Positions 5,652 through 49,712 of a DNA stretch of 50,028 bases are shown in pieces. Position numbers and translations under genes: made by a program. Source of the stretch: an uncultured Verrucomicrobiota bacterium (lineage in GTDB: Bacteria > Verrucomicrobiota > Kiritimatiellia > RFP12 > UBA1067). The number at the start of each line of letters is the position of its first letter. Within the stretch, counting starts at the first letter, position 1. The notes beneath the pieces are model-generated. The model had not been told where the DNA came from. It made no database searches and was given only the letters and a program-made list of their open reading frames with translations. Location of the stretch: contig CAMOIK010000001.1 in the NCBI GenBank assembly GCA_946615875.1, forward strand, positions 1-50,028, read 5' to 3'.

Positions 5652-5685
5652 GCGCGGACGCCCCCTCCTTTCGCCTTCCTTTGCC

Positions 5686-5763
5686 AGTTCCAACGACTTG
5701 CCAAACTCGTTGGAACGACCTGCCCGACTCGTTGGAACGACTTTGACGGGTCGTTGGAACGAC
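5686..5763. repeat. four copies of the near-palindromic 11-14-nt motif (C/G)TCGTTGGAACGAC: one inverted copy plus three direct copies at exactly 22-bp spacing
   Basis: The direct copies are at 5706-5719, 5728-5741 and 5750-5763. The inverted copy GTTCCAACGAC is at 5687-5697. The core is TCGTT-GG-AACGA, which has dyad symmetry. Confidence 0.85.
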
Positions 5764-5940
5764 CGGGTTGATGCCTGGGAAGGGGGGCGGGACGGGCCAA
5801 TGATGGGATAAACGGGCATTCCAGGGGCGAAAATCGCTGAAAACGGCGCAATGGCCGTCTGGACGGGCGCCAATGCGCGGGGCGTGGCGCGATGGATGCG
5901 TCGCGAGTCAATATGCGCGGATTATGGGGCACGAGGCGCG

Positions 5941-5962
5941 AAAAATATGGTATAATATGCGG
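5941..5962 (+). promoter_or_regulatory. extended -10 promoter box AAAAATATGGTATAATATGCGG (TATAAT at 5951-5956), hisD
   Basis: It contains TGGTATAAT (TGn plus the consensus -10) and belongs to the box family repeated across the window. The hisD ATG is at 5964, 7 nt after the hexamer. Confidence 0.7.
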
Positions 5963-11037: not shown

Positions 11038-11080
11038 GTGTTGAAATTGTTCAACGCACTTTCAACGCATTTTCAACGCA
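11038..11080. repeat. three direct TTCAACGCA repeats at 11-bp spacing, preceded by the inverted half-site GTGTTGAA
   Basis: The copies are at 11050-11058, 11061-11069 and 11072-11080, and the inverted GTGTTGAA is at 11038-11045. They lie between the divergent folK and yraN promoters, and the last copy overlaps the -35 position of the yraN promoter. Confidence 0.75.
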
Positions 11081-11092
11081 CGGCTTCCGTCC

Positions 11093-11108
11093 GATATGGG
11101 ATAATGTG
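11093..11108 (+). promoter_or_regulatory. variant promoter box GATATGGGATAATGTG (GATAAT at 11100-11105), yraN
   Basis: It has the same architecture as the main box (ATATGG-N-ATAAT) and lies 38 nt upstream of the yraN ATG. Confidence 0.45.
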
Positions 11109-17206: not shown

Positions 17207-17228
17207 CACATATATTACCATATTGTGG
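17207..17228 (-). promoter_or_regulatory. variant promoter box CCACAATATGGTAATATATGTG (TAATAT at 17217-17212), antitoxin operon
   Basis: It has an ATATGGTA core with TG-G-TAATAT. The ATG at 17201 is 10 nt after the hexamer. Confidence 0.5.
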
Positions 17229-17353
17229 ACATGGTGTCAATGGCGGGGAATGTGCATTTCCCTCCATGTTTGGCCTAATATGTCCTATTGACGTCCATAT
17301 GTGGATATGCTTTCCCGTCGGTCCTCGCCCGTCGATCGGTCGGTCTGGCCGCG

Positions 17354-18424
17354 CTATTCGGGCGGCGTCCAGTTCTGCATGGCGGAGTGAAGTTCTTCGA
17401 CGCGAGAGAGGTATTTGGCGGCTTCGCCCTGCGCCACCGCGTCCTTCGATTCCTGGAGGCGCGCTACTCTGTCCATCGTGCTCTTGTAGAACGCGGCGGC
17501 CTTTTTCGCCTCAACGGGCTTCTTGACCGGCTTGGCTGCTTCGCGCTCGCAGGAGGCGACGATCTTGATCATCTTCTGGCGGTCCGGATACTTCTTCAGG
17601 CGGTTGTTGAGCGAGGCCAGCTTCCTGTCGGATTTCAAGTCCGGCCACATCTTCAGCAATTCCTCTATGTCCCACATGGCCTGTCCCGGCGAAGAGTTGG
17701 AGTCGGAGATAAGCTCGGTCAGCCGCATGTCGCGTTTCTGGACGATTGCCGCCGAGAGGTGGCGGGCCTCCTCCGCCACGGCGGGATCTTTGTCTGCGGA
17801 CATCTTGCGCAGCCAGTTCAGGCCGGGTTTCATGGAATGGCCTTGGCTGAAGTGGTTCGTCACGTCGCCGGCGAGTTTGTCCACCTTGGCGATGCCGAAG
17901 ATCGGATGTTCGCGAGGCAGTTTGCGCACTGCCGCGAACGCGGCGGACGACGCCTTGGAGAAGTCGGTGCCGCTGTGCAGGACCTTGCCGTTCGTGCCGA
18001 CGACGTAGAAGAAGGGGAGTGATTTCGCGGCCGGCTCGCCTTCGGCCAGGCCGGCGTCGTTGTAGATCGGGATGCTCTTCTCCAGCGGTATTTCAAGATC
18101 CTTCATGGTTTCGGCGAACTTCGCCGCGTTCATGCGGTGTCCGCGCAGCGAGGCGATCGCTTTCAGACGGTAGAATTTGCTGTTTCTCGCCGTGCTCATG
18201 GCCTTGACCACCTTGTCGAGCGGCAGTTTCTTTATGGAGTCCTCGTTGAACGCCGCCACGATGACGACGGTGTCGATCAAGTCTTCCGGCTCGATAATCG
18301 CGCCGTTCACGCGGTTCTTCTCGCCGAGGCCGCGCCAGATTTCCTTGCCGTCATGTCCTGCCGCGCTGCCGCACATGGCCGTGAACCCGGCAAGCGCCGC
18401 CAACATCCACTGTTTCGCTTTCAT
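17354..18424 (-). CDS. secreted hypothetical protein: N-terminal thioredoxin-fold-like region without CxxC, then a Lys-rich helical C-terminal half
   Basis: The signal peptide is MKAKQWMLAALAGFTAMCGSAAG. The ORF is 356 aa and is directly preceded by a promoter box. No family is assigned with confidence. Confidence 0.65.
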   Translation of the reverse strand: MKAKQWMLAALAGFTAMCGSAAGHDGKEIWRGLGEKNRVNGAIIEPEDLIDTVVIVAAFNEDSIKKLPLDKVVKAMSTARNSKFYRLKAIASLRGHRMNAAKFAETMKDLEIPLEKSIPIYNDAGLAEGEPAAKSLPFFYVVGTNGKVLHSGTDFSKASSAAFAAVRKLPREHPIFGIAKVDKLAGDVTNHFSQGHSMKPGLNWLRKMSADKDPAVAEEARHLSAAIVQKRDMRLTELISDSNSSPGQAMWDIEELLKMWPDLKSDRKLASLNNRLKKYPDRQKMIKIVASCEREAAKPVKKPVEAKKAAAFYKSTMDRVARLQESKDAVAQGEAAKYLSRVEELHSAMQNWTPPE

Positions 18425-18427
18425 GGC

Positions 18428-18450
18428 CGATAGTATAGCATATTTTCGCC
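18428..18450 (-). promoter_or_regulatory. variant promoter box GGCGAAAATATGCTATACTATCG (TATACT at 18437-18432)
   Basis: It has the same flanks as the main box, with TGC in place of TGG. The ATG at 18424 is 7 nt after the hexamer. Confidence 0.6.
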
Positions 18451-18540
18451 GCTTCGTCTATGGCAAAACGACACGCGCGACAGGCGCGGCAGATGGCGTC
18501 GATAGCGGCTGGGCGGTGCATGCCATAGGCCGCCGCTTGT

Positions 18541-18699
18541 TCCATATATAGACTGCCTCTTCTCCATATATGGACTGCCCCCTGCTCTATATATAGACTA
18601 CCCTCTTCTCTATATATAGACTGCCGCCTTCTCCATATATAGACGGCCGCTTCTCCATATATGGACTGCCGCCCGCTCCATATATGGCGTCGCCGAGTC
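18541..18699 (+). repeat. iteron-like tandem array, 7 units of 22-23 bp, unit TC(C/T)ATATAT(A/G)GAC(T/G)GCC-N5-6
   Basis: Units start at 18541, 18563, 18586, 18609, 18632, 18654 and 18677; the last unit is degenerate. Units 3 and 4 contain the AT-only palindromic core TCTATATATAGA. The array lies in the divergent intergenic region between two promoter boxes. Confidence 0.9.
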
Positions 18700-18816
18700 C
18701 CCAAGGGCGGCGGTTGGGCGGTGATGCAAGCCAATGGGAGCGACGAAGGCGCAAGCCCCATGATGCGCTTGCGCGGCAACCCGGATGCGAACACGCACGG
18801 CGCGCGGCTCGCGCCC

Positions 18817-18848
18817 TTGACCCGCTGCGCGGAATTATGGTATAATAG
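18817..18848 (+). promoter_or_regulatory. promoter: -35 TTGACC (18817-18822), 18-bp spacer, extended -10 TTATGGTATAATAG (TATAAT at 18841-18846)
   Basis: It is the only box in the window with a clear -35. It lies 27 nt upstream of the ATG at 18873, which has the SD AAAGGAAAG. Confidence 0.7.
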
Positions 18849-18872: not shown

Positions 18873-19511
18873 ATGAGAGACTTGTTCATTTGCTGTGCGG
18901 GCGGGCTGGGGCGCGAAGCGGTCTGGACTGTCGAGCGCATCAACAAGGCTGCTCAGCAGCCTCTCTGGAACGTAATCGGCTTCGCGGACGACGATCCTGC
19001 CAAGGCCGAAGGGAATTTCGAGGGCTATCCGATGCTCGGGAGCTGCGAGAAGGCTTCCAAGGACTACCCCGGCGCGTCGGTGTTCATTGCGATAGGCGAC
19101 AACAAGCTGCGCGCCGAGATATACAGGCGGCTGCGCGGGCACGACTTTCCGGCGATCATCGACCCGTCGGCGCAGGTCTCGCCCACGACCGAGTTCAAGC
19201 ACGGCACCTACATCGCCGCCGAGGCCGTGGTTTCGGTGGGCACGGAGATAGGCAAGTTCGCGATCATCAACGCCCGCGCCGGAGTCGGCCACGATTGCCA
19301 GCTGGGCGACTTCGTGCAGATTTCGCCCGGCGTCTCCATTTCCGGGAACTGCAAGATCGGCGACTACGTGCTGATGGGCACCAACTCCTGCACCGCGCCG
19401 CACATGACCGTGGGCGACAACGCGACGGTGTGCGCCGGCACGCCCGTCTTGAAGGATGTGGGGCCTGGCGAGACGCTCTCGCCTTTCGGCACGCTGAAGA
19501 GCCAGGCGTGA
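18873..19511 (+). CDS. sugar O-acyltransferase, NeuD/PglD-like hexapeptide-repeat family
   Basis: The N-terminal Rossmann-like LFICCAGGLGREA is followed by left-handed beta-helix hexapeptide repeats (IGKFAIINARAGVGHDCQLGDFVQISPGVSISGNCKIGDYVLMG). Confidence 0.8.
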   Translation: MRDLFICCAGGLGREAVWTVERINKAAQQPLWNVIGFADDDPAKAEGNFEGYPMLGSCEKASKDYPGASVFIAIGDNKLRAEIYRRLRGHDFPAIIDPSAQVSPTTEFKHGTYIAAEAVVSVGTEIGKFAIINARAGVGHDCQLGDFVQISPGVSISGNCKIGDYVLMGTNSCTAPHMTVGDNATVCAGTPVLKDVGPGETLSPFGTLKSQA

Positions 19512-21955
19512 AGTGGGCGCTGTACAACCTGGCGTTCGCGCTGGTGTTCCCGGCGCTGCTGCCGGGATTTTTGCTGCGGATGGCGCGGCGGGGCGGCTAT
19601 CGCGCCCGCATTGGCGACCGCTTCGCCCTCTACCCTGAAAGCGTTATCGACGCCTTCGCCGCGCGGTCCGTCTCCGGCGCGGCGCCGGTCTGGATACACG
19701 CCGTCTCGGTGGGCGAAGTGCAGGTGGCGCTGCAGCTGATGAGGGAGTGGCGCGCCGCCGAGCCGGACGTGCGTTTCTGTTTCTCGACCACCAGCTCGAC
19801 GGGCTGGAAGATCGCGGAAGGGGGGGTGGGCGCCAACGACGTGCTGATATACAACCCTCTCGACTTCCCCAACTTCGTGAAATCGGCGCTGCGCACGGTG
19901 CGGCCGCGCGCCATCGTCCTCACAGAGAGCGAGATATGGCCGGTCTTCATACGCCGCGCAAGGAAGGCCGGAATCCCGCTCTTCCTGATCAACGCCCGCG
20001 TAAGCGACCGCAGCGCCCCGCGCTATCGCCTGGCCAGATGGTTCTTCAAGGACGTGTTTTCCTGCTTCACCGCCATTTTCGCCCAGTCTCGCCTGGACGC
20101 CGAGCGCCTGATCGCGGCAGGGGTGCCGTCCGGCATAGTCAAGGTGACGGGCAGCTTCAAGTTCGACGTGGCGCGGCGCAACCCGTCCAAGGAGAAGGAG
20201 TTGGCGGACTGGATCGCCGCTTCCTGCGGCGCGGCGGACGCGCCGCGCCGCCGCATACTCCTTGGCGCGTCCACCTGGCCGGGTGAGGACGAGGTGATGC
20301 TGCGGGTCTACGCCGCCATGCCGGACGACGTGCTGCTGGTCATCGCGCCACGCCACTTCGAAAAGGCGGATGCCGTGGAGGCGAACATCGTCAAGGCGGG
20401 CTTCCGCTGCGTCAGGCGCTCGAAAGGCGGCAGCGCAAACGCCGATTGCGGCGGCGCCAGGTGCGTCTTCCTGGCCGACACCACCGGCGAGCTGATGGGA
20501 CTCTACGGCATCGCGGACGCCGTGTTCGTGGGCAAGTCGCTGTGCGAGCACGGCAGCCAGAACATGATCGAGCCGTGCCTCTGCGGCAAGCCCACCGTCG
20601 TGGGGCCGAACACCGAGAACTTCCGCCCGGTCATGAGCGACCTGCTGGAGGCGGGGGCGATAGTCCAGGCCGGCGACGAGGCGCAGGTCGCCGCCACGCT
20701 CGTCAAATGGCTCTCGCCGGAGGGACGCTCCGAAGCGCAGGCGCTGGGGGCGCGCGCCGCCGCCGCCGTCGCCGGGCGCGTGGGCGTGGTGCCGCGCTGC
20801 CTCGGCGAGATACGCGACGCGCTTGGCCTCGCCGCGCCGCCGCAGGAGGTGGCGCACGGCACGCGTCGGCGCACTCCTTGGCTTTGGCTCGCGCCGACGG
20901 CCGTGGCCGTCGCGCTGGCCGCGGCCATCCTCTCTGGCGGCAGACCGGACGCTCAGGACTTCGACGCCATCGCGGATGCCGCCGCGGAGCATTTCAGATA
21001 CAGGCCGCTCGACACCATCGAACGCTTCATCGGGCGCATCGAGAAGCCTGACGCGTCGGCCACCAACGACATCGTCTTCGTCAAGGACGGCAGACGCAGA
21101 AACTGGAGCGACGTGATTCGCGCCGCTTCGCCGGACGCCGCGATCGTGTGGCCGCTGGACGTCCGCGACATGACCATGGCGGAGTTCAAGGAAGCGCTCG
21201 ACTCTTTCCCGTGCCGAGACGCGCACCTGTGGATGCCGGGCGAGACCGATTGGGTGCTGGCCGGGCGCATCGCGCCCGCCAGCGTCGCGATAGGCGACAT
21301 CCTGGAGGCGTTCTCCGACGAGACCGCCATAGACGATCTGGCGGAGGCCAGGTGCGACACGCTCCCGGAGTTCTTCGCCAACTACGTCGGCGACAGGATG
21401 ACGTGCATGGGCGCGTTTACGGGCGACCTCTCCGCCAAAGTCGCGCCGGAAAGGTTCGTCACGCAGGAGATACCGGACGTCGGATGGGTCGCGCCGGGCG
21501 ATCTCGACGAGGACATACTTGAAGCCACGGCGCAGGAGATGCGCTCGCTCATGCTCGTGCGCCGCAGCGTGATAGAGGGCAACATGCTCGCCAAGCAGGG
21601 CAAGACGGACGACGCGATAGAGAAATGGGCCTCCGCCCTGCTGCGCAATCCGCACGACACCATGCTTCTCGGCCGCCTCCACCGCCTCGCGGTCAATGCC
21701 ATAACCTTTGAGAAGGTCGGCAACATGAGCGCCGCCGCCAAGTGCTACGAAACGATGCTTTGCGTCTGCCCGACAGACATCGCCGCCGTCATGGCCTATG
21801 CGAACTGCCTCCGGCGGCTCGGCAAGAACCAGATGGCGGACGACGTGATGAAGCGCGTCGAGAGCCTGAAGCGCTCCATGGCCGCCGAGGAGGCCGGCGA
21901 GAAGGGCGGCGACGCGCCGACGCCGCCACAGGAAAACCGAAAGGAGGAGAAATGA
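19508..21955 (+). CDS. waaA: 3-deoxy-D-manno-octulosonic acid (Kdo) transferase fused to a C-terminal TM helix plus a ~350-aa uncharacterised/TPR-like module
   Basis: GTG at 19508 overlaps the upstream stop (GTGA). The WaaA motifs are VWIHAVSVGEV and a GT-B C-lobe (GGSQNMIEP-type SLCEHGSQNMIEP). A hydrophobic helix, PWLWLAPTAVAVALAAAILSGG, lies at about 20875-20940. An unassigned domain follows, then TPR-like helices and an acidic/Lys tail. The total is 815 aa, against about 420 for a typical WaaA. Confidence 0.8.
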   Translation: MKWALYNLAFALVFPALLPGFLLRMARRGGYRARIGDRFALYPESVIDAFAARSVSGAAPVWIHAVSVGEVQVALQLMREWRAAEPDVRFCFSTTSSTGWKIAEGGVGANDVLIYNPLDFPNFVKSALRTVRPRAIVLTESEIWPVFIRRARKAGIPLFLINARVSDRSAPRYRLARWFFKDVFSCFTAIFAQSRLDAERLIAAGVPSGIVKVTGSFKFDVARRNPSKEKELADWIAASCGAADAPRRRILLGASTWPGEDEVMLRVYAAMPDDVLLVIAPRHFEKADAVEANIVKAGFRCVRRSKGGSANADCGGARCVFLADTTGELMGLYGIADAVFVGKSLCEHGSQNMIEPCLCGKPTVVGPNTENFRPVMSDLLEAGAIVQAGDEAQVAATLVKWLSPEGRSEAQALGARAAAAVAGRVGVVPRCLGEIRDALGLAAPPQEVAHGTRRRTPWLWLAPTAVAVALAAAILSGGRPDAQDFDAIADAAAEHFRYRPLDTIERFIGRIEKPDASATNDIVFVKDGRRRNWSDVIRAASPDAAIVWPLDVRDMTMAEFKEALDSFPCRDAHLWMPGETDWVLAGRIAPASVAIGDILEAFSDETAIDDLAEARCDTLPEFFANYVGDRMTCMGAFTGDLSAKVAPERFVTQEIPDVGWVAPGDLDEDILEATAQEMRSLMLVRRSVIEGNMLAKQGKTDDAIEKWASALLRNPHDTMLLGRLHRLAVNAITFEKVGNMSAAAKCYETMLCVCPTDIAAVMAYANCLRRLGKNQMADDVMKRVESLKRSMAAEEAGEKGGDAPTPPQENRKEEK

Positions 21956-38643: not shown

Positions 38644-38674
38644 CTCCATCCATCCCTTCCCTTGGGGACGGAAA

Positions 38675-38827
38675 GTCCATATATAGAGAACGGCAAGTCC
38701 ATATATAGAGATGCCGCGAGTCTATATATGGAGAAGTGGCAAGTCTATATATCAAGTCTATATATAATATAGAGACGGGGCAAGTCTATATATAGAGACG
38801 CGCGAGTGAATATATAGGGATGCGCGG
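38675..38827 (-). repeat. second iteron-like tandem array, 7 units, the same family as 18541-18699 but in inverted orientation
   Basis: Units start at 38675, 38697, 38720, 38743 (truncated to 13 bp), 38756 (28 bp), 38784 and 38806 (degenerate). The unit is GTC(C/T)ATATAT(A/G)GAGA-N7-8. GGCAAGTCTATATATGGAGA matches the reverse complement of array-1 units (GGCAGTCTATATATGGAGA). Confidence 0.9.
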
Positions 38828-38902: not shown

Positions 38903-38924
38903 GGAAAATATGGTATAATATGCG
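38903..38924 (+). promoter_or_regulatory. extended -10 promoter box GGAAAATATGGTATAATATGCG (TATAAT at 38914-38919)
   Basis: This is an exact copy of the box, 27 nt upstream of the ATG at 38946. Confidence 0.7.
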
Positions 38925-38945: not shown

Positions 38946-40448
38946 ATGAAGATCACGCCAGAACTGCTGTGTGCCGCGGCGACGTTCGCCGCGGCTGGAT
39001 GCTCAATGCTGCCGTCTGTCGGCCCGGACTACCGCGAGCCTGAGAGGAAACTGCCAGACTTCGCGCTGCCTGACGCGGGATACCCGACGACCAACCTCCT
39101 GGAGTCGGGCGAATACAAAATCGCGGAAGACGGCGACGACTGGAGAGTGAACATCACCACCAACGAGATACGGTCGTGGTGGACTCGCTTCAACGATCCC
39201 GTGCTTACCGGCCTGGTCGATTCGTCGGTCTCCAACAACCTCTCCTATCTTATGGCGCAGGAACGCCTGGTCCAGGCGCGCTGGTCGCTCGTCGGCTCGT
39301 ATGCGGCGTTCCTGCCGCACGTCGGGGCGTCGGGCTCCGCCACGCGGATGGAGCGCGGCAAAGACACGTCCGCCAGGTGGGGGACGGGAAGCAAGCTGCA
39401 CCGCGACGTGTTCACCGGCGGCTTCGACGCCACGTGGGAGATAGACATCTTCGGAGGCAGCCGCCGCGCCACCGAGGCGGCGACGGCCGAATTCGAGGCG
39501 GCCGGCTGGAACCTGGCCGACGCCTGGGTGTCGCTCACTTCCGAGGTGGGCAGCCAGTATATCGCGCTGCGCACCACGCAGCAGCGCATCGAGGTCGCGC
39601 GCGACAACCTGGTGCTGCAGCGCGAAACCTACGACATCCTCAAGTCCCGCCTGGACTCCGGCATCGGCGACGAGCTGGCCGTGAGCCAGTCCAAGTACAT
39701 CCTGGAGCAGACCCACGCGGCGATACCGCCGCTGCTCGCCCAGGAGGAGCAGTTGAAGAACGCGCTCGCGATCCTGACCGGCCTGATGCCCGGCGCGCTC
39801 GAAGAGGAGCTTTCCGAGTGCCCCGACCGCGACTGGCTGGTGGAGCCGCAGAAGCTTTCCGGCATCCCGCTCGACATGATACGCGCGCGCCCCGACGTGA
39901 GGGCGGCGGAGCGGCGGCTGGCGGCGCAGGTCGCCCGCGTAGGGGTGGCGCAGGCGCGCTGGTATCCAAAGCTCTTCATCAACGGCTCGCTCGGCCTCGA
40001 CTCCGTGCATCCCCAGAAACTCTTCCATCGCGACGCGCTCATGGGCTCCATAGGCCCGTCGTTCAGCTGGCCGATATTCCAAGGCGGCGGCATATACGCC
40101 GCCGTCCAGGCCGAGGAGGCCAAGGTCAATGAGGCTTGCCTCGCATACGACCTCGCCATCCAGAAGGCGTATGCCGAGATACGCGACGCCTACGCCGCCT
40201 ACACCCACGAATACCACCGCTACCAGGCGCTCCAGGCGGCCGTCAAGGCGGCAGAGGACGCGGTCTCCATCGCCAAGGACCTCTACAAGAACGGACTCAA
40301 GGACTTCACGGCCGTCATCGACGCCCAGCGCTCCCTGCTGACGCTGGCGGAGTCGCTCGTCGTGAGCCGCGGCAGCATCTCGCGCCACCTCATCGCGCTC
40401 TACAAGGCGCTCGGCGGCGGCGTGGTGGTGGAGGCCGAAGAGGGCTAG
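38946..40448 (+). CDS. efflux transporter outer-membrane factor lipoprotein, NodT/OprM family
   Basis: It has the lipobox AAAGCS, the N-terminal PDYREPE motif after the Cys, and two TolC-like repeats. It is 500 aa. Confidence 0.85.
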   Translation: MKITPELLCAAATFAAAGCSMLPSVGPDYREPERKLPDFALPDAGYPTTNLLESGEYKIAEDGDDWRVNITTNEIRSWWTRFNDPVLTGLVDSSVSNNLSYLMAQERLVQARWSLVGSYAAFLPHVGASGSATRMERGKDTSARWGTGSKLHRDVFTGGFDATWEIDIFGGSRRATEAATAEFEAAGWNLADAWVSLTSEVGSQYIALRTTQQRIEVARDNLVLQRETYDILKSRLDSGIGDELAVSQSKYILEQTHAAIPPLLAQEEQLKNALAILTGLMPGALEEELSECPDRDWLVEPQKLSGIPLDMIRARPDVRAAERRLAAQVARVGVAQARWYPKLFINGSLGLDSVHPQKLFHRDALMGSIGPSFSWPIFQGGGIYAAVQAEEAKVNEACLAYDLAIQKAYAEIRDAYAAYTHEYHRYQALQAAVKAAEDAVSIAKDLYKNGLKDFTAVIDAQRSLLTLAESLVVSRGSISRHLIALYKALGGGVVVEAEEG

Positions 40449-48206: not shown

Positions 48207-48245
48207 ACTCCATAAACCGAAAAACAAGTGAAAGGAATGATGACC

Positions 48246-49712
48246 ATGAGCAGACTGATGATGGCGTGTGTGTCCGCGCTTTGCCTGTCGTCCGGCGCGA
48301 CTGCGATCGCGCAGACGACCGGGGACTATCCCTCCGAGAGGCAATACCAGATGGTGGACGGAATAAGGTGGTCCTACGTCGTCGATGGCGGATCGGCCAC
48401 GGTGTTCGGTTCTTCCTGGCTGGAATACGACGACGAGGAAGGCCAGGACACCATGGAATACGAGCCTGCGATACCCGCAAACACCCGCGGCGCGATAGCG
48501 GTGCCCTCTGTGCTCGGCGGATACGGTGTGACTGCCATCGGCGACGGTGCGTTCACGGAATGCGAGTATCTGACGTCGGTGACGGTGCCGTCCGGCGTGA
48601 CGCGCATCGGCGAGGATGCGTTTTCCGACTGCGAGCGCCTGACTTCCGTCTCGCTGCCGGAGGGCGTCGTCGAGATTGGCGGCGATGCGTTTGACGGGTG
48701 CGAGTCGCTTTCGTCAATTTCAATCCCAGGCACTGTGACAAGCATCGGCCGCAATGCGTTCGCCGACTGCGGGAATTTGCGCTCCATCTACATCCCGCCG
48801 AGCGTGAAGACGATCGGCTACCACGCATTCGCCCGCTGCACGAAGCTCTCCAGCATAAAGGTGCCGGCGGCGCTTGCCTCGGCAGTCGAAAGCGCGGACG
48901 CGTTCTACCGCTGCCGCGCCAGCATCGAATACTACGGCGGCTCCTCTTCGCCAAGTGCGCCGACGTCCAGCTATAAAAAGGCGCAGACGCTGACCGGCGT
49001 GGCGTGGCTCGACGACGGGCCGGCCGTTCTGTCGATCAAGGTGGGCAAGATGAACAAGAAAGGCTACGTCTCCGTCGGCGGCTATGCAATGGGCGTGAAC
49101 GGCAAGAAGCTCTCCGTGAAATCCGCCAAGCTCAAGGTGGACGAGGATGGACAGCTGCAAGGCTCGTTGATGGCAAGGGACGGCTCGTCGATCGACATCG
49201 TCATCGACGGAGACGAGATGCATGGCGTCTGGAAAGGCGGGGAGTTCAGCAGCGGCGGCGACACGGTCGGCGGGCTCTTCGAAAACGATAGGTCGCTCAC
49301 GTTCTACTTCGAAAACGACCTCGAAGAGGAGGATTTGCCCGACGGAACGATCATGTCTCTCCTGCCGGAAGGCGAGGATGTCTATGTGAAAAACGGAAAG
49401 CCTGCGACGTACAAGGCTGCGAGCGTCAAGTGGGCCAGGCCGAAACCAGACATGGCGCTGGAAATCTACGACGAGACGTCGGGCAAGGGACTTGTCGTGG
49501 ACACGTCGAAGGACAGGACGAACCTTTCCGCCTTGAAGTTCACCTACGCGCCAAAGACGGGCCTTCTCAAGGGAAGCTTCAAGATCTATGCGATACAGAA
49601 TGGAAAGCTGAAAAAGCTCACGTCCAAGATCGCCGGAATCGTGGTGAACGGCACTGGGTTCGGATTTGCCACGATTGCGGGGAGATCCTCTCAGCCGGTT
49701 CAGCTTGATTGA
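48246..49712 (+). CDS. secreted leucine-rich-repeat (BspA-like LRR) protein with a beta-rich C-terminal domain
   Basis: The signal peptide is MSRLMMACVSALCLSSGATAIAQ. About six ~23-aa LRRs have the form L-x-S-V-x-I/L-P-x-x-V-x-x-IG-x-x-AF-x-x-C. The start is uncertain: GTG 48228, ATG 48237/48240 or ATG 48246. Confidence 0.75.
   Translation: MSRLMMACVSALCLSSGATAIAQTTGDYPSERQYQMVDGIRWSYVVDGGSATVFGSSWLEYDDEEGQDTMEYEPAIPANTRGAIAVPSVLGGYGVTAIGDGAFTECEYLTSVTVPSGVTRIGEDAFSDCERLTSVSLPEGVVEIGGDAFDGCESLSSISIPGTVTSIGRNAFADCGNLRSIYIPPSVKTIGYHAFARCTKLSSIKVPAALASAVESADAFYRCRASIEYYGGSSSPSAPTSSYKKAQTLTGVAWLDDGPAVLSIKVGKMNKKGYVSVGGYAMGVNGKKLSVKSAKLKVDEDGQLQGSLMARDGSSIDIVIDGDEMHGVWKGGEFSSGGDTVGGLFENDRSLTFYFENDLEEEDLPDGTIMSLLPEGEDVYVKNGKPATYKAASVKWARPKPDMALEIYDETSGKGLVVDTSKDRTNLSALKFTYAPKTGLLKGSFKIYAIQNGKLKKLTSKIAGIVVNGTGFGFATIAGRSSQPVQLD

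What the first reader, a model, noticed from the sequence alone, without database searches (positions are those of the whole stretch)
18541..18699. Iteron-like array: seven tandem 22-23-bp repeats with an AT-only palindromic core in a GC-rich intergenic region
The units start at 18541, 18563, 18586, 18609, 18632, 18654 and 18677. The unit consensus is TC(C/T)ATATAT(A/G)GAC(T/G)GCC plus 5-6 variable nt, and units 3 and 4 carry the perfect 12-nt palindrome TCTATATATAGA. The 22-23-bp period, about two helical turns, places every core on roughly the same DNA face. That geometry is used by plasmid iterons (for example the seven 22-bp iterons of R6K), by partition centromeres, and by cooperative repressor or activator arrays. 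The array fills the divergent region between the promoter of the secreted hypothetical gene (-10 at 18437) and the promoter of the NeuD-like/WaaA operon (-10 at 18841). No feature I can annotate explains it. The ORFs across it in the six-frame track are simply translations of the repeat (…SLYIEKR…). No Rep-like, ParR-like or obvious cognate DNA-binding gene lies adjacent.
Basis: seen in the sequence. Interest (0 to 1): 0.7.

Follow-up and report, generated by a model that had tools for sequence, protein, structure and literature searches.

The report
Dispersed palindrome-core tandem repeat, not an iteron
The seven 22-23-bp repeats are real, but they are one copy of a repeat element scattered through the intergenic DNA of gut Kiritimatiellia bacteria (like BOX or MIRU repeats elsewhere), not a replication origin, plasmid centromere or private operator of the neighbouring genes.

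Summary
It is not unique. A second array in inverted orientation lies 20 kb away at 38668-38821. Both start with the same 11-mer, CCCTTGGGGAC, which occurs nowhere else in the window.

The window is chromosomal Kiritimatiellia DNA with housekeeping genes. A related MAG (75-78% nucleotide identity) carries the same array at 29 fetched loci. There it sits between conserved flanking modules with imperfect inverted ends. The order of spacers is shared between loci, so whole arrays are copied from place to place. The neighbouring genes are unrelated housekeeping genes.

Close relatives lack the array upstream of the PglD/WaaA operon. One relative has a different repeat at the NodT promoter. I found no rep or par gene, DnaA-box cluster, GC-skew switch, or plasmid, phage or Rfam match.

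Best reading: a lineage-specific interspersed tandem-repeat element, BOX/MIRU-like. Its palindromic core is probably a site for a dimeric DNA-binding protein acting in trans; this part is inferred. Any effect on the promoters about 100 nt away would be secondary. It is a new member of a known kind and of modest interest.

The parts
18541..18699 (-). Array 1: seven 22-23-bp units. Read on the - strand the unit is GGCAG-TCYATATATRGA-GAAG plus variable bases. The unit at 18677 is degenerate.
   Evidence: Orientation was assigned by comparison with array 2 and the CAVAHB01 arrays.
18518..18540 (-). Decayed terminal unit of array 1 (..GCCATAGGCCGCCGCTTGT).
   Evidence: In one search (D3), 18525-18594 aligns with 18616-18685 at 86% identity, which puts this stretch in register with a full unit.
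18697..18707 (-). Boundary motif CCCTTGGGGAC at the 5' edge of array 1 (in array orientation).
   Evidence: the 11-mer occurs exactly twice in the window, both times at an array boundary (0.01 expected). See also the alignment.
38659..38669 (+). The same boundary motif CCCTTGGGGAC at the 5' edge of array 2.
38668..38821 (+). Array 2: about seven units of GCAAG-TCYATATATRGA-GA plus variable bases. One unit is truncated, one carries a 5-bp insertion, and the last is degenerate (TGAATATATAGG).
   Evidence: It is 80% complementary to array 1 over 79 nt (I1).
18432..18466 (-). Promoter of the orphan secreted-protein gene 18424..17354. It has an extended -10 (TGCTATACT) and the transcript is probably leaderless. 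It lies about 100 nt downstream of array 1 in array orientation.
18817..18846 (+). Promoter of the PglD-like/WaaA-TPR operon (TTGACC, 18-nt spacer, TGGTATAAT), about 140 nt from the other end of array 1.
38908..38919 (+). Extended -10 promoter (ATATGGTATAAT) of the NodT-family outer-membrane lipoprotein gene 38946..40448, about 95 nt downstream of array 2.

Best explanation
Array 1 is one copy of a lineage-specific interspersed tandem-repeat element of gut Kiritimatiellia. It resembles pneumococcal BOX elements and mycobacterial MIRUs in kind.

Shown: each 22-23-bp unit is a 12-bp AT-centred palindrome (TCYATATATRGA) with conserved asymmetric shoulders (AG on one side, GAA on the other) and about 7 variable bases. 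The same array module occurs twice in this window with an identical boundary 11-mer. It occurs at 29 fetched loci in a related genome, where it lies between conserved flanking modules with about 20-bp imperfect inverted ends. In that genome whole arrays, including the order of their spacers, are shared between loci, so they are copied between intergenic sites as units.

Inferred: arrays grow and shrink by unequal recombination or slippage in multi-unit blocks. The evidence is the internal 45-bp and 91-bp periodicities and the decayed terminal units.

Inferred, less certain: the palindromic core is the binding site of a dimeric DNA-binding protein supplied in trans. This could be the protein that mobilises the element or a nucleoid-type host protein. 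That would explain why the core stays invariant while spacers drift, and why it persists in lineages ranging from 49% to 66% GC.

Any influence on the promoters about 100 nt away would be a by-product of insertion into promoter-upstream DNA. The array is not a dedicated control region of these genes.
For: Family and dispersal:
- Second array in the window.
- Shared boundary motif, found 2 times against 0.01 expected.
- 29 loci on 27 contigs of MAG CAVAHB01, 19 of them at contig ends as expected for a repeat that breaks assemblies.
- That MAG is a relative, with 75-78% nucleotide identity in guaA, uvrB and other genes.

Mobility as a unit:
- Conserved mosaic flanks and imperfect inverted ends AGTACWAAGKAGTAC.
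- The arrays of L014 and L046 are identical, and the order of spacers is shared among L008, L003, L037 and L020 and among L045, L005 and L014.
- The flanks pair and close the array, as boxA and boxC do.

No regulon logic:
- Neighbours are queC, prs, a class-II aaRS, gyrB, pfkB, rnf, exbB, serA-like, pdxS, guaA and hisD.
- Both orientations occur, and promoter distances range from 78 to 313 nt.

Not conserved at orthologous loci:
- PglD homologues at 91, 89, 83 and 81% identity have other upstream neighbours and no array.
- The 87% NodT relative carries (TTGAGAGGT)n instead, and the 79% relative has nothing.

Core constraint:
- In 135 CAVAHB01 units the core positions are at maximal information content while spacer positions are at 0.2-0.9 bit.
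- The only 2 SNPs between same-species copies of array 2 fall in spacers.
- The same core, 22-bp period and 44-45-bp super-period occur in a 49%-GC Kiritimatiellia MAG.
Against: - Only two copies can be seen in the window's own genome.
- The window arrays lack the long flanking modules and inverted ends of the CAVAHB01 element. Only the 11-mer boundary and a weak resemblance at the 5' edge are shared. Mobility is therefore shown in the relative and only inferred here.
- No target-site duplication, clean empty site or cognate transposase was found.
- No binding protein is identified.
- Because spacer order is inherited from master copies, core invariance across loci is weaker evidence for site-by-site selection than it first appears.
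- Both window arrays point toward a promoter 95-105 nt downstream, and 0 of 10 complete arrays lie between convergent genes. This is compatible with a promoter-related role.
Confidence: 0.6

Rival explanations
1. The array is a host architectural or regulatory array. A class-wide nucleoid-associated protein or global regulator binds the palindromes cooperatively upstream of many promoters, as an upstream activating, silencing or insulating array. The arrays would be maintained by selection for that role.
For: - The core and the roughly 22.5-bp period are conserved in three Kiritimatiellia lineages of 49-66% GC.
- All 10 complete arrays lie in divergent or tandem intergenic regions and none in convergent ones.
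- Both window arrays lie 95-105 nt upstream of an extended -10 in the same orientation.
- The L048 array lies between a terminator and a promoter.
- Apart from promoters, AT-only runs in this 66%-GC window are almost confined to the arrays.
Against: - The arrays are absent from orthologous promoters in close relatives.
- Orientation and promoter distance vary.
- Whole arrays are copied between loci together with flanking modules, which is how selfish repeats behave.
- The 0-of-10 convergent result has P of about 0.06 and rests on a crude gene caller.
Confidence: 0.2
2. The array is a neutral satellite or VNTR produced by slippage and unequal crossing-over with no protein partner. Core conservation would reflect only recent common descent and concerted evolution.
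For: - The terminal units are decayed and the interior is homogeneous.
- Multi-unit internal duplications occur (91-bp offset; period 45).
- Intergenic regions of related genomes are full of other tandem repeats of 8, 9 and 22 bp.
Against: - Within single arrays the cores are invariant while adjacent spacers differ.
- The same 12-bp palindrome persists across lineages with very different base composition.
- The arrays have defined boundary modules.
Confidence: 0.12
3. The array acts as RNA or single-stranded DNA. When transcribed it would form a string of hairpins acting as a terminator, insulator, stabiliser or protein sponge, as proposed for BOX and REP elements.
For: - Folding z-scores are -5.4 and -5.2 for the two strands of array 1 and -6.2 for a full CAVAHB01 element, whose flanks pair.
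- BOX elements are transcribed and predicted to fold (PMC3049150).
Against: - The stems are formed by AU-only palindromes pairing with their neighbours and are equally good on both strands, so they follow from the palindromy itself.
- There is no Rfam match.
- Orientation relative to genes is not fixed.
- The window arrays lie upstream of promoters and would not be in the mRNAs of the genes they face.
Confidence: 0.05
4. The array is a set of plasmid-type iterons or a partition centromere, or a dedicated operator array for the flanking secreted-protein and PglD/WaaA genes.
For: The architecture is iteron-like: seven direct repeats of 22-23 bp, each with a conserved core.
Against: - The context is chromosomal housekeeping DNA (leuA, leuC, pheA, hisD, ribD, ribE, nusB, coaD, uvrB, guaA).
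- There is no rep, par or adjacent DNA-binding gene apart from a weak Phd/YefM-like hit 1.2 kb away.
- Only one DnaA-box-like match at up to 1 mismatch was found, against 2.1 expected, and GC skew does not switch.
- Plasmids and phages give no match.
- There are multiple copies per genome.
- The array is absent upstream of orthologous operons, and the secreted-protein gene's only homologue has no array.
Confidence: 0.03

Closest known systems
BOX elements of Streptococcus pneumoniae and S. suis (boxA - boxB(n) - boxC composite interspersed repeats)
   Same: Both are small non-coding elements dispersed in intergenic DNA. Terminal modules flank a variable number of tandem internal modules and can pair with each other. 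In both, different flanking modules surround the same internal module, and both sit near promoters with possible side effects on expression (PMC3049150; here).
   Different: No sequence relation is expected or seen. The internal unit here is 22-23 bp with a 12-bp AT palindrome, not the boxB sequence. The host is a PVC-group diderm. In the window itself only an 11-nt boundary motif is present, not full A/C-like modules.
Mycobacterial interspersed repetitive units (MIRU-VNTR)
   Same: Both are tandem repeats of one family scattered over tens of intergenic loci of a GC-rich chromosome. MIRUs occupy 41 loci in M. tuberculosis H37Rv (PMC3914561).
   Different: MIRU units are 46-101 bp and are not palindrome-centred. 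Copy-number variation between strains, the hallmark of MIRU loci, was not seen here in the few assemblies available.
Plasmid iterons (for example R6K gamma ori, 22-bp units) and ParR/parC-type centromeres
   Same: All are direct repeats with a period of about two helical turns, a conserved core and a variable spacer. This geometry suits cooperative binding and a superhelical nucleoprotein complex (general knowledge; geometry).
   Different: There is no replicon context, no adjacent rep or par gene, and many copies per chromosome. Each unit here is itself a palindrome, whereas iterons are usually asymmetric.
REP/BIME and MITE families
   Same: All are dispersed extragenic palindromic units found in clusters. 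The related MAG's element has imperfect terminal inverted repeats.
   Different: The palindrome here is short and AT-centred, not a GC-rich hairpin with a GTAG head. Units are in direct tandem, not in alternating orientation. No RAYT gene, transposase or target-site duplication was identified.
NrdR box (16-bp palindrome acaCwAtATaTwGtgt; recalled from memory, not tested)
   Same: The central CTATATATAG of the NrdR box is identical to the T/A variant of the core here.
   Different: The outer half-site bases differ (TC/GA here against CAC/GTG). NrdR boxes occur as pairs upstream of nrd genes, not as 7-10-unit arrays beside unrelated genes.

Membership tests
Plasmid/Rep-type iteron origin | An adjacent rep initiator gene | tested here: not met
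   Pfam scans of genes around both arrays found only metabolic, envelope and repair genes.
Plasmid/Rep-type iteron origin | DnaA boxes or an AT-rich unwinding element next to the iterons, and a strand-skew switch | tested here: not met
   One DnaA-box-like match at up to 1 mismatch in 50 kb, against 2.1 expected. Cumulative GC skew shows no inflection at 18.5 kb.
Plasmid/Rep-type iteron origin | One array per replicon, on a plasmid or phage backbone | tested here: not met
   Two arrays in 50 kb and 29 loci in a related MAG. No match in 72,556 plasmids or 50,697 phages.
Partition centromere (parC/parS/sopC type) | An adjacent parA/parB or parM/parR operon that the repeats autoregulate | tested here: not met
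   No Par-family domain was found in flanking genes.
Locus-specific operator/UAS array | Conserved upstream of the orthologous genes in related genomes | tested here: not met
   PglD/WaaA relatives at 81-91% identity lack the array. NodT relatives at 87% and 79% lack it. The only homologue of the 356-aa gene lacks it.
BOX-type composite interspersed repeat | Many copies dispersed in intergenic DNA | tested here: met
   Two copies in the window and 29 loci in CAVAHB01, all intergenic. The genome-wide count for the window's own species could not be tested.
BOX-type composite interspersed repeat | Terminal modules flanking a variable number of tandem internal modules | tested here: inconclusive
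   Met in CAVAHB01: 3-10 units between conserved left and right modules. In the window only the 11-mer CCCTTGGGGAC is shared at one edge.
BOX-type composite interspersed repeat | Terminal modules complementary to each other, closing the array in a stem | tested here: inconclusive
   Met for the CAVAHB01 element L014. No convincing pairing of flanks was found for the window arrays.
MIRU-type VNTR | Copy number varies between strains | tested here: inconclusive
   Array 2 has the same unit count in the window and in L150 and L151, but these may derive from few samples. Array 1 is truncated in the other assemblies.
MITE | Terminal inverted repeats | tested here: inconclusive
   About 15 of 20 bases match in the inverted ends AGTACWAAGKAGTAC.. 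in CAVAHB01. The window has none at up to 3 mismatches.
MITE | Target-site duplication and a cognate autonomous IS | not testable with these tools
   The element ends are blurred by mosaic neighbouring repeat modules, and the whole genomes could not be searched.
REP/REPIN-RAYT | A GC-rich imperfect hairpin with a conserved GTAG-type head, and a RAYT gene in the genome | tested here: not met
   The unit is a 12-14-bp palindrome with an AT centre and no GTAG head. The presence of a RAYT gene could not be tested.

The most novel reading that the evidence does not exclude
The TCCATATATGGA arrays may be the chromosomal docking sites of a DNA-binding protein conserved across the class Kiritimatiellia, either a nucleoid-organising factor or a domesticated transposase. 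It would polymerise over 5-10 palindromes spaced about 22.5 bp apart, upstream of many promoters. That would be a genome-wide, iteron-like layer of promoter insulation or activation not described in any bacterium. The repeat elements would then be the vehicle that spreads these sites.
Probability: 0.15. Interest if true: 0.7.

Novelty: new member of a known kind. Interest (0 to 1): 0.33.

Why it matters
It removes a false lead: this is not a hidden replicon, origin or centromere. It also documents what appears to be an undescribed interspersed repeat family in Kiritimatiellia, a poorly studied gut and rumen lineage known mostly from MAGs.

Practically, these arrays break short-read assemblies. 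Nineteen of the 29 loci in the related MAG lie at contig ends. The arrays could also serve as VNTR typing markers.

Biologically, the strict conservation of a 12-bp palindrome at a fixed period across lineages of 49-66% GC gives a concrete handle for fishing out an unknown DNA-binding protein. The same would allow a test of whether selfish repeats rewire promoter-upstream DNA in this group.

Tried and rejected
- **Rfam scan of the whole window:** no family found.
- **Viral contig scan with the two-unit pattern:** 7 hits. The 5 that I read (L050, L052, L054-L056) are pairs of ..TCTATATATAGA.. sites in 40-48%-GC phage intergenic DNA and look unrelated.
- **Metagenome scan:** 73 loci. Of the multi-unit arrays whose sequence I read, several were TA-rich simple sequence, and one contig (L076) had no long ORFs and is possibly eukaryotic. 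None of the 73 loci exceeded 55% GC.
- **Plasmid and phage BLAST:** no match.
- **Literature searches for Kiritimatiellia tandem repeats and for the CCATATATGG motif in bacteria:** nothing relevant; only eukaryotic CArG-box and primer hits.
- **Fetching the 20 kb of the source contig upstream of the window:** failed, because the chosen ORF start did not match a called gene.
- **Each unit as a promoter:** rejected by reading the core sequence. No hexamer in the core fits TAnnnT.
- **CsrA-type GGA sponge:** rejected, because the R position is often A.
- **NrdR, ArgR, Fis and Lrp site resemblances:** considered from memory. None fits both the sequence and the array context.
- **Link to toxin-antitoxin operators:** the L048 array precedes relB/yoeB, and a weak Phd/YefM-like gene lies 1.2 kb from array 1. 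I treated this as coincidence.
- **Window array 3 core (TCGTTGGAACGA):** not found in any fetched locus.

Full report
**Observation**

The sequence at 18541-18699 contains seven head-to-tail units starting at 18541, 18563, 18586, 18609, 18632, 18654 and 18677. Six carry an exact TCYATATATRGA and the seventh has one mismatch. TRF gives period 23, 6.4 copies and 83% matches. A period-45 reading scores higher, 222 against 185. The window has 12 matches to the core at up to 1 mismatch, against 0.02 expected from shuffles.

Three corrections apply.
- A decayed extra unit precedes the array. 18525-18594 is 86% identical to 18616-18685 at a 91-bp offset, so the array contains a four-unit internal duplication.
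- The mean period is 22.67 bp. Successive cores rotate about 57 degrees and spiral once around the helix over the array, so they do not all share one face.
- The array is not unique.

**A second copy and a shared boundary**

TRF and direct reading show a second array at 38668-38821. Its units are GCAAG-TCYATATATRGA-GA.. on the + strand. This is the reverse complement of the array 1 units, which read GGCAG-TCYATATATRGA-GAAG on the - strand. The two arrays are 80% complementary over 79 nt (I1).

In array orientation, both begin immediately after the 11-mer CCCTTGGGGAC. This 11-mer occurs exactly twice in the window, against 0.01 expected (alignment). Both arrays end 95-105 nt upstream of an extended -10 promoter: 18432-18443(-) for an orphan secreted protein and 38908-38919(+) for a NodT-family lipoprotein. 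The two arrays are therefore copies of one defined element and did not arise as independent local expansions.

**Context**

The window is chromosomal. Its genes include pheA, leuA, leuC, hisD, nusB, ribD, ribE, coaD, uvrB, guaA, glmM-like, fabF-like and PglD-like/WaaA-TPR. No rep, par, integrase or transposase domain was seen in the genes scanned around the arrays. There is no cluster of DnaA boxes, no GC-skew inflection and no Rfam family. Sources name homologues of two window proteins as Kiritimatiellae/Kiritimatiellia.

**Dispersal in a relative**

I scanned one genome per species (GTDB) for two adjacent cores. This returned 29 loci on 27 contigs of a single MAG, CAVAHB01, and 19 of them lie at contig ends. 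The record is titled Faecalibacterium sp. CAG:74. However, it is 60-67% GC and 75-78% identical in nucleotide sequence to the window's guaA, uvrB and other genes. It is therefore a related Kiritimatiellia and probably mislabelled.

In this MAG the arrays have 3-10 units of AGTCCATATATGGA(G/C)AAC plus variable bases, with a 45-bp super-period. They are embedded between conserved modules:
- Left: ..AGTACAAAGTAGTACACGAGTTCC..CAGTTCAAAAAAAGTTGCC..TTTCGGCGCGGCGAACCCTTCCTGTCCGACCGCCGA
- Right: AAyCCCAACGCTCCCTGAGGGGTTTCGCCGCGCTCCCTGAGGGGGCAGACGGCGGCTTTCCCGTACTCCTTAGTACT

Further mosaic modules lie beyond these. The outer ends are imperfect inverted repeats, and the inner flanks pair and close the array in a predicted fold.

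The order of "spacers" is shared between loci. The arrays of L014 and L046 are identical. L008, L003, L037 and L020 share one series, and L045, L005 and L014 share another. Whole arrays are therefore copied between sites and afterwards gain or lose units.

The neighbouring genes are unrelated housekeeping genes: queC, prs, a class-II aminoacyl-tRNA synthetase, gyrB, pfkB, an acyl-CoA ligase, rnf, exbB, serA-like, pdxS, guaA and a C10 peptidase. Both orientations occur, and distances to the nearest extended -10 box range from 78 to 313 nt.

Using a crude GC3-based gene caller, the 10 complete arrays (8 in the MAG and 2 in the window) lie in 5 divergent, 5 tandem and 0 convergent intergenic regions. 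This is suggestive, with P of about 0.06.

**Orthologous loci**

PglD-like proteins at 91, 89, 83 and 81% identity are each preceded by a different gene: a Na+/H+ antiporter, a T2SS ATPase, a GHMP kinase and a methyltransferase. None has an array.

The orphan 356-aa gene has a single homologue, at 49% identity, and that copy sits inside an operon without an array.

At the NodT locus, contigs of the same species keep array 2 with the same number of units. They differ by two SNPs, both in spacers, and by a 3-bp deletion downstream. An 87% relative has (TTGAGAGGT)n at the same place, and a 79% relative has neither repeat.

Related genomes carry many other intergenic tandem repeats. Examples are 8-9-bp units and a 22-bp unit, CAGTCGTCGCCTTCGCTTGCCG, upstream of the antiporter promoter. 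The window itself has a third 22-bp array with a different core at 5685-5781. Repeat turnover in promoter-upstream DNA is evidently fast in this clade.

**Wider distribution**

A 49%-GC Kiritimatiellia MAG (L048) has an array of alternating CTCCATATATGGAG and GTCCATATATGGAC units, with period 22 and super-period 44-45. It lies between a terminator and the promoter of a relB/yoeB pair.

Other matches appear unrelated to this family. These are Desulfonema, Calditrichaceae, phage contigs and TA-rich simple sequence in metagenomes; I read some of them (L015, L044; five of the seven phage contigs; seven of the metagenome loci), and the rest were judged from base composition and site spacing alone. 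Plasmid and phage collections give no match to array 1.

**Interpretation**

What is shown: array 1 belongs to a dispersed family whose arrays are copied between intergenic sites. The family has no link to a replicon, to a functional class of genes or to conserved orthologous positions.

What is inferred: arrays grow by unequal recombination in multi-unit blocks. The evidence is the 45-bp and 91-bp periodicities and the decayed edges.

What is inferred with less certainty: the core is a site for a dimeric protein. The argument is that the 12-bp palindrome and its asymmetric shoulders are at maximal information content while spacer positions are at 0.2-0.9 bit, and that the core survives across lineages of very different composition. 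This argument is weakened because spacer series are inherited from master copies.

The strongly negative folding z-scores on both strands follow from the palindromy itself and do not argue for an RNA function.

The closest analogues are pneumococcal BOX elements, which have terminal modules around a variable tandem array and sit near promoters (PMC3049150), and MIRUs, which are tandem repeats at 41 intergenic loci (PMC3914561). The resemblance is one of kind, not of sequence.

**Verdict**

The iteron, centromere and private-operator readings are not supported. The array is most likely a new member of the known class of interspersed intergenic repeat elements, and it has an unusually clean palindromic core. 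Interest is modest (0.33). It would rise if a class-wide binding protein were found.

Noticed in passing
window 5685-5781: A third tandem array with the same 22-bp period but a different core: TCGTTGGAACGAC plus 9 nt, 4 copies, with neighbouring units forming inverted repeats. It lies about 165 nt upstream of the strong promoter at 5945-5956 that precedes hisD. The core was not found in any fetched locus.
   Followed up: partly
window, + strand 5945, 11094, 11630, 18835, 36537, 38908, 44091; - strand 36427, 31739, 26766, 18432, 17212, 10993: A very uniform promoter box, GCGAAAAATATGGTATAATATGCG (extended -10 with an upstream A-tract), occurs at 13 sites. Several genes start about 7 nt after the -10 (for example 5963 and 18424) and look leaderless. 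Apart from these promoters and the arrays, AT-only runs of 7 or more bases are almost absent from the window.
   Followed up: partly
window 17294-17305: A solitary near-copy of the core (TCCATATGTGGA), with a possible second degenerate unit next to it. It lies about 70-90 nt upstream of the promoter at 17212-17223(-), which drives a weak Phd/YefM-like 83-aa gene, a 148-aa gene and a DUF445 gene. It may be a decayed array remnant.
   Followed up: no
window 11050-11081: An 11-nt tandem repeat, TTCAACGCACT x2.9, lies directly upstream of the promoter at 11094.
   Followed up: no
loci L003-L046 (GenBank CAVAHB01): The MAG titled 'Faecalibacterium sp. CAG:74' is 60-67% GC and 75-78% identical in nucleotide sequence to this Kiritimatiellia window across guaA, uvrB and other genes. 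The taxonomic label looks wrong, or the bin is chimeric.
   Followed up: partly
L152-L154 positions 1-97; L063 4001-4090; L152 1648-1698 and 2505-2563; L146 379-450: Related Kiritimatiellia carry other intergenic tandem-repeat families: TTGAGAGGT (9 bp, in at least two genomes), ATTGTGAA and AATCTCAC (8 bp), and CAGTCGTCGCCTTCGCTTGCCG (22 bp). They often lie just upstream of promoters and at contig ends.
   Followed up: partly
window 17354-18424 (-): The secreted 356-aa protein next to array 1 is an orphan. In a database of 5.8 billion non-redundant proteins it has only its own cluster and one homologue at 49% identity, and it has no Pfam domain.
   Followed up: partly
window 19508-21955 (+): WaaA (Kdo transferase) is fused to a C-terminal extension of about 370 aa containing TPR repeats. 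In the 89% relative the two parts are separate genes (445 aa and 367 aa).
   Followed up: no
window 48524-48659: A 69-nt tandem repeat lies inside the coding sequence 48228-49712. It is probably a protein repeat and unrelated to the finding.
   Followed up: no
L050, L055, L056 (IMG/VR contigs): Three phage contigs share a pair of AATCTATATATAGACT sites 24 bp apart in an intergenic region. L052 and L054 carry a similar pair of TCTATATATAGA-type sites with different flanks. They may be phage operators and are probably unrelated to the Kiritimatiellia arrays.
   Followed up: no
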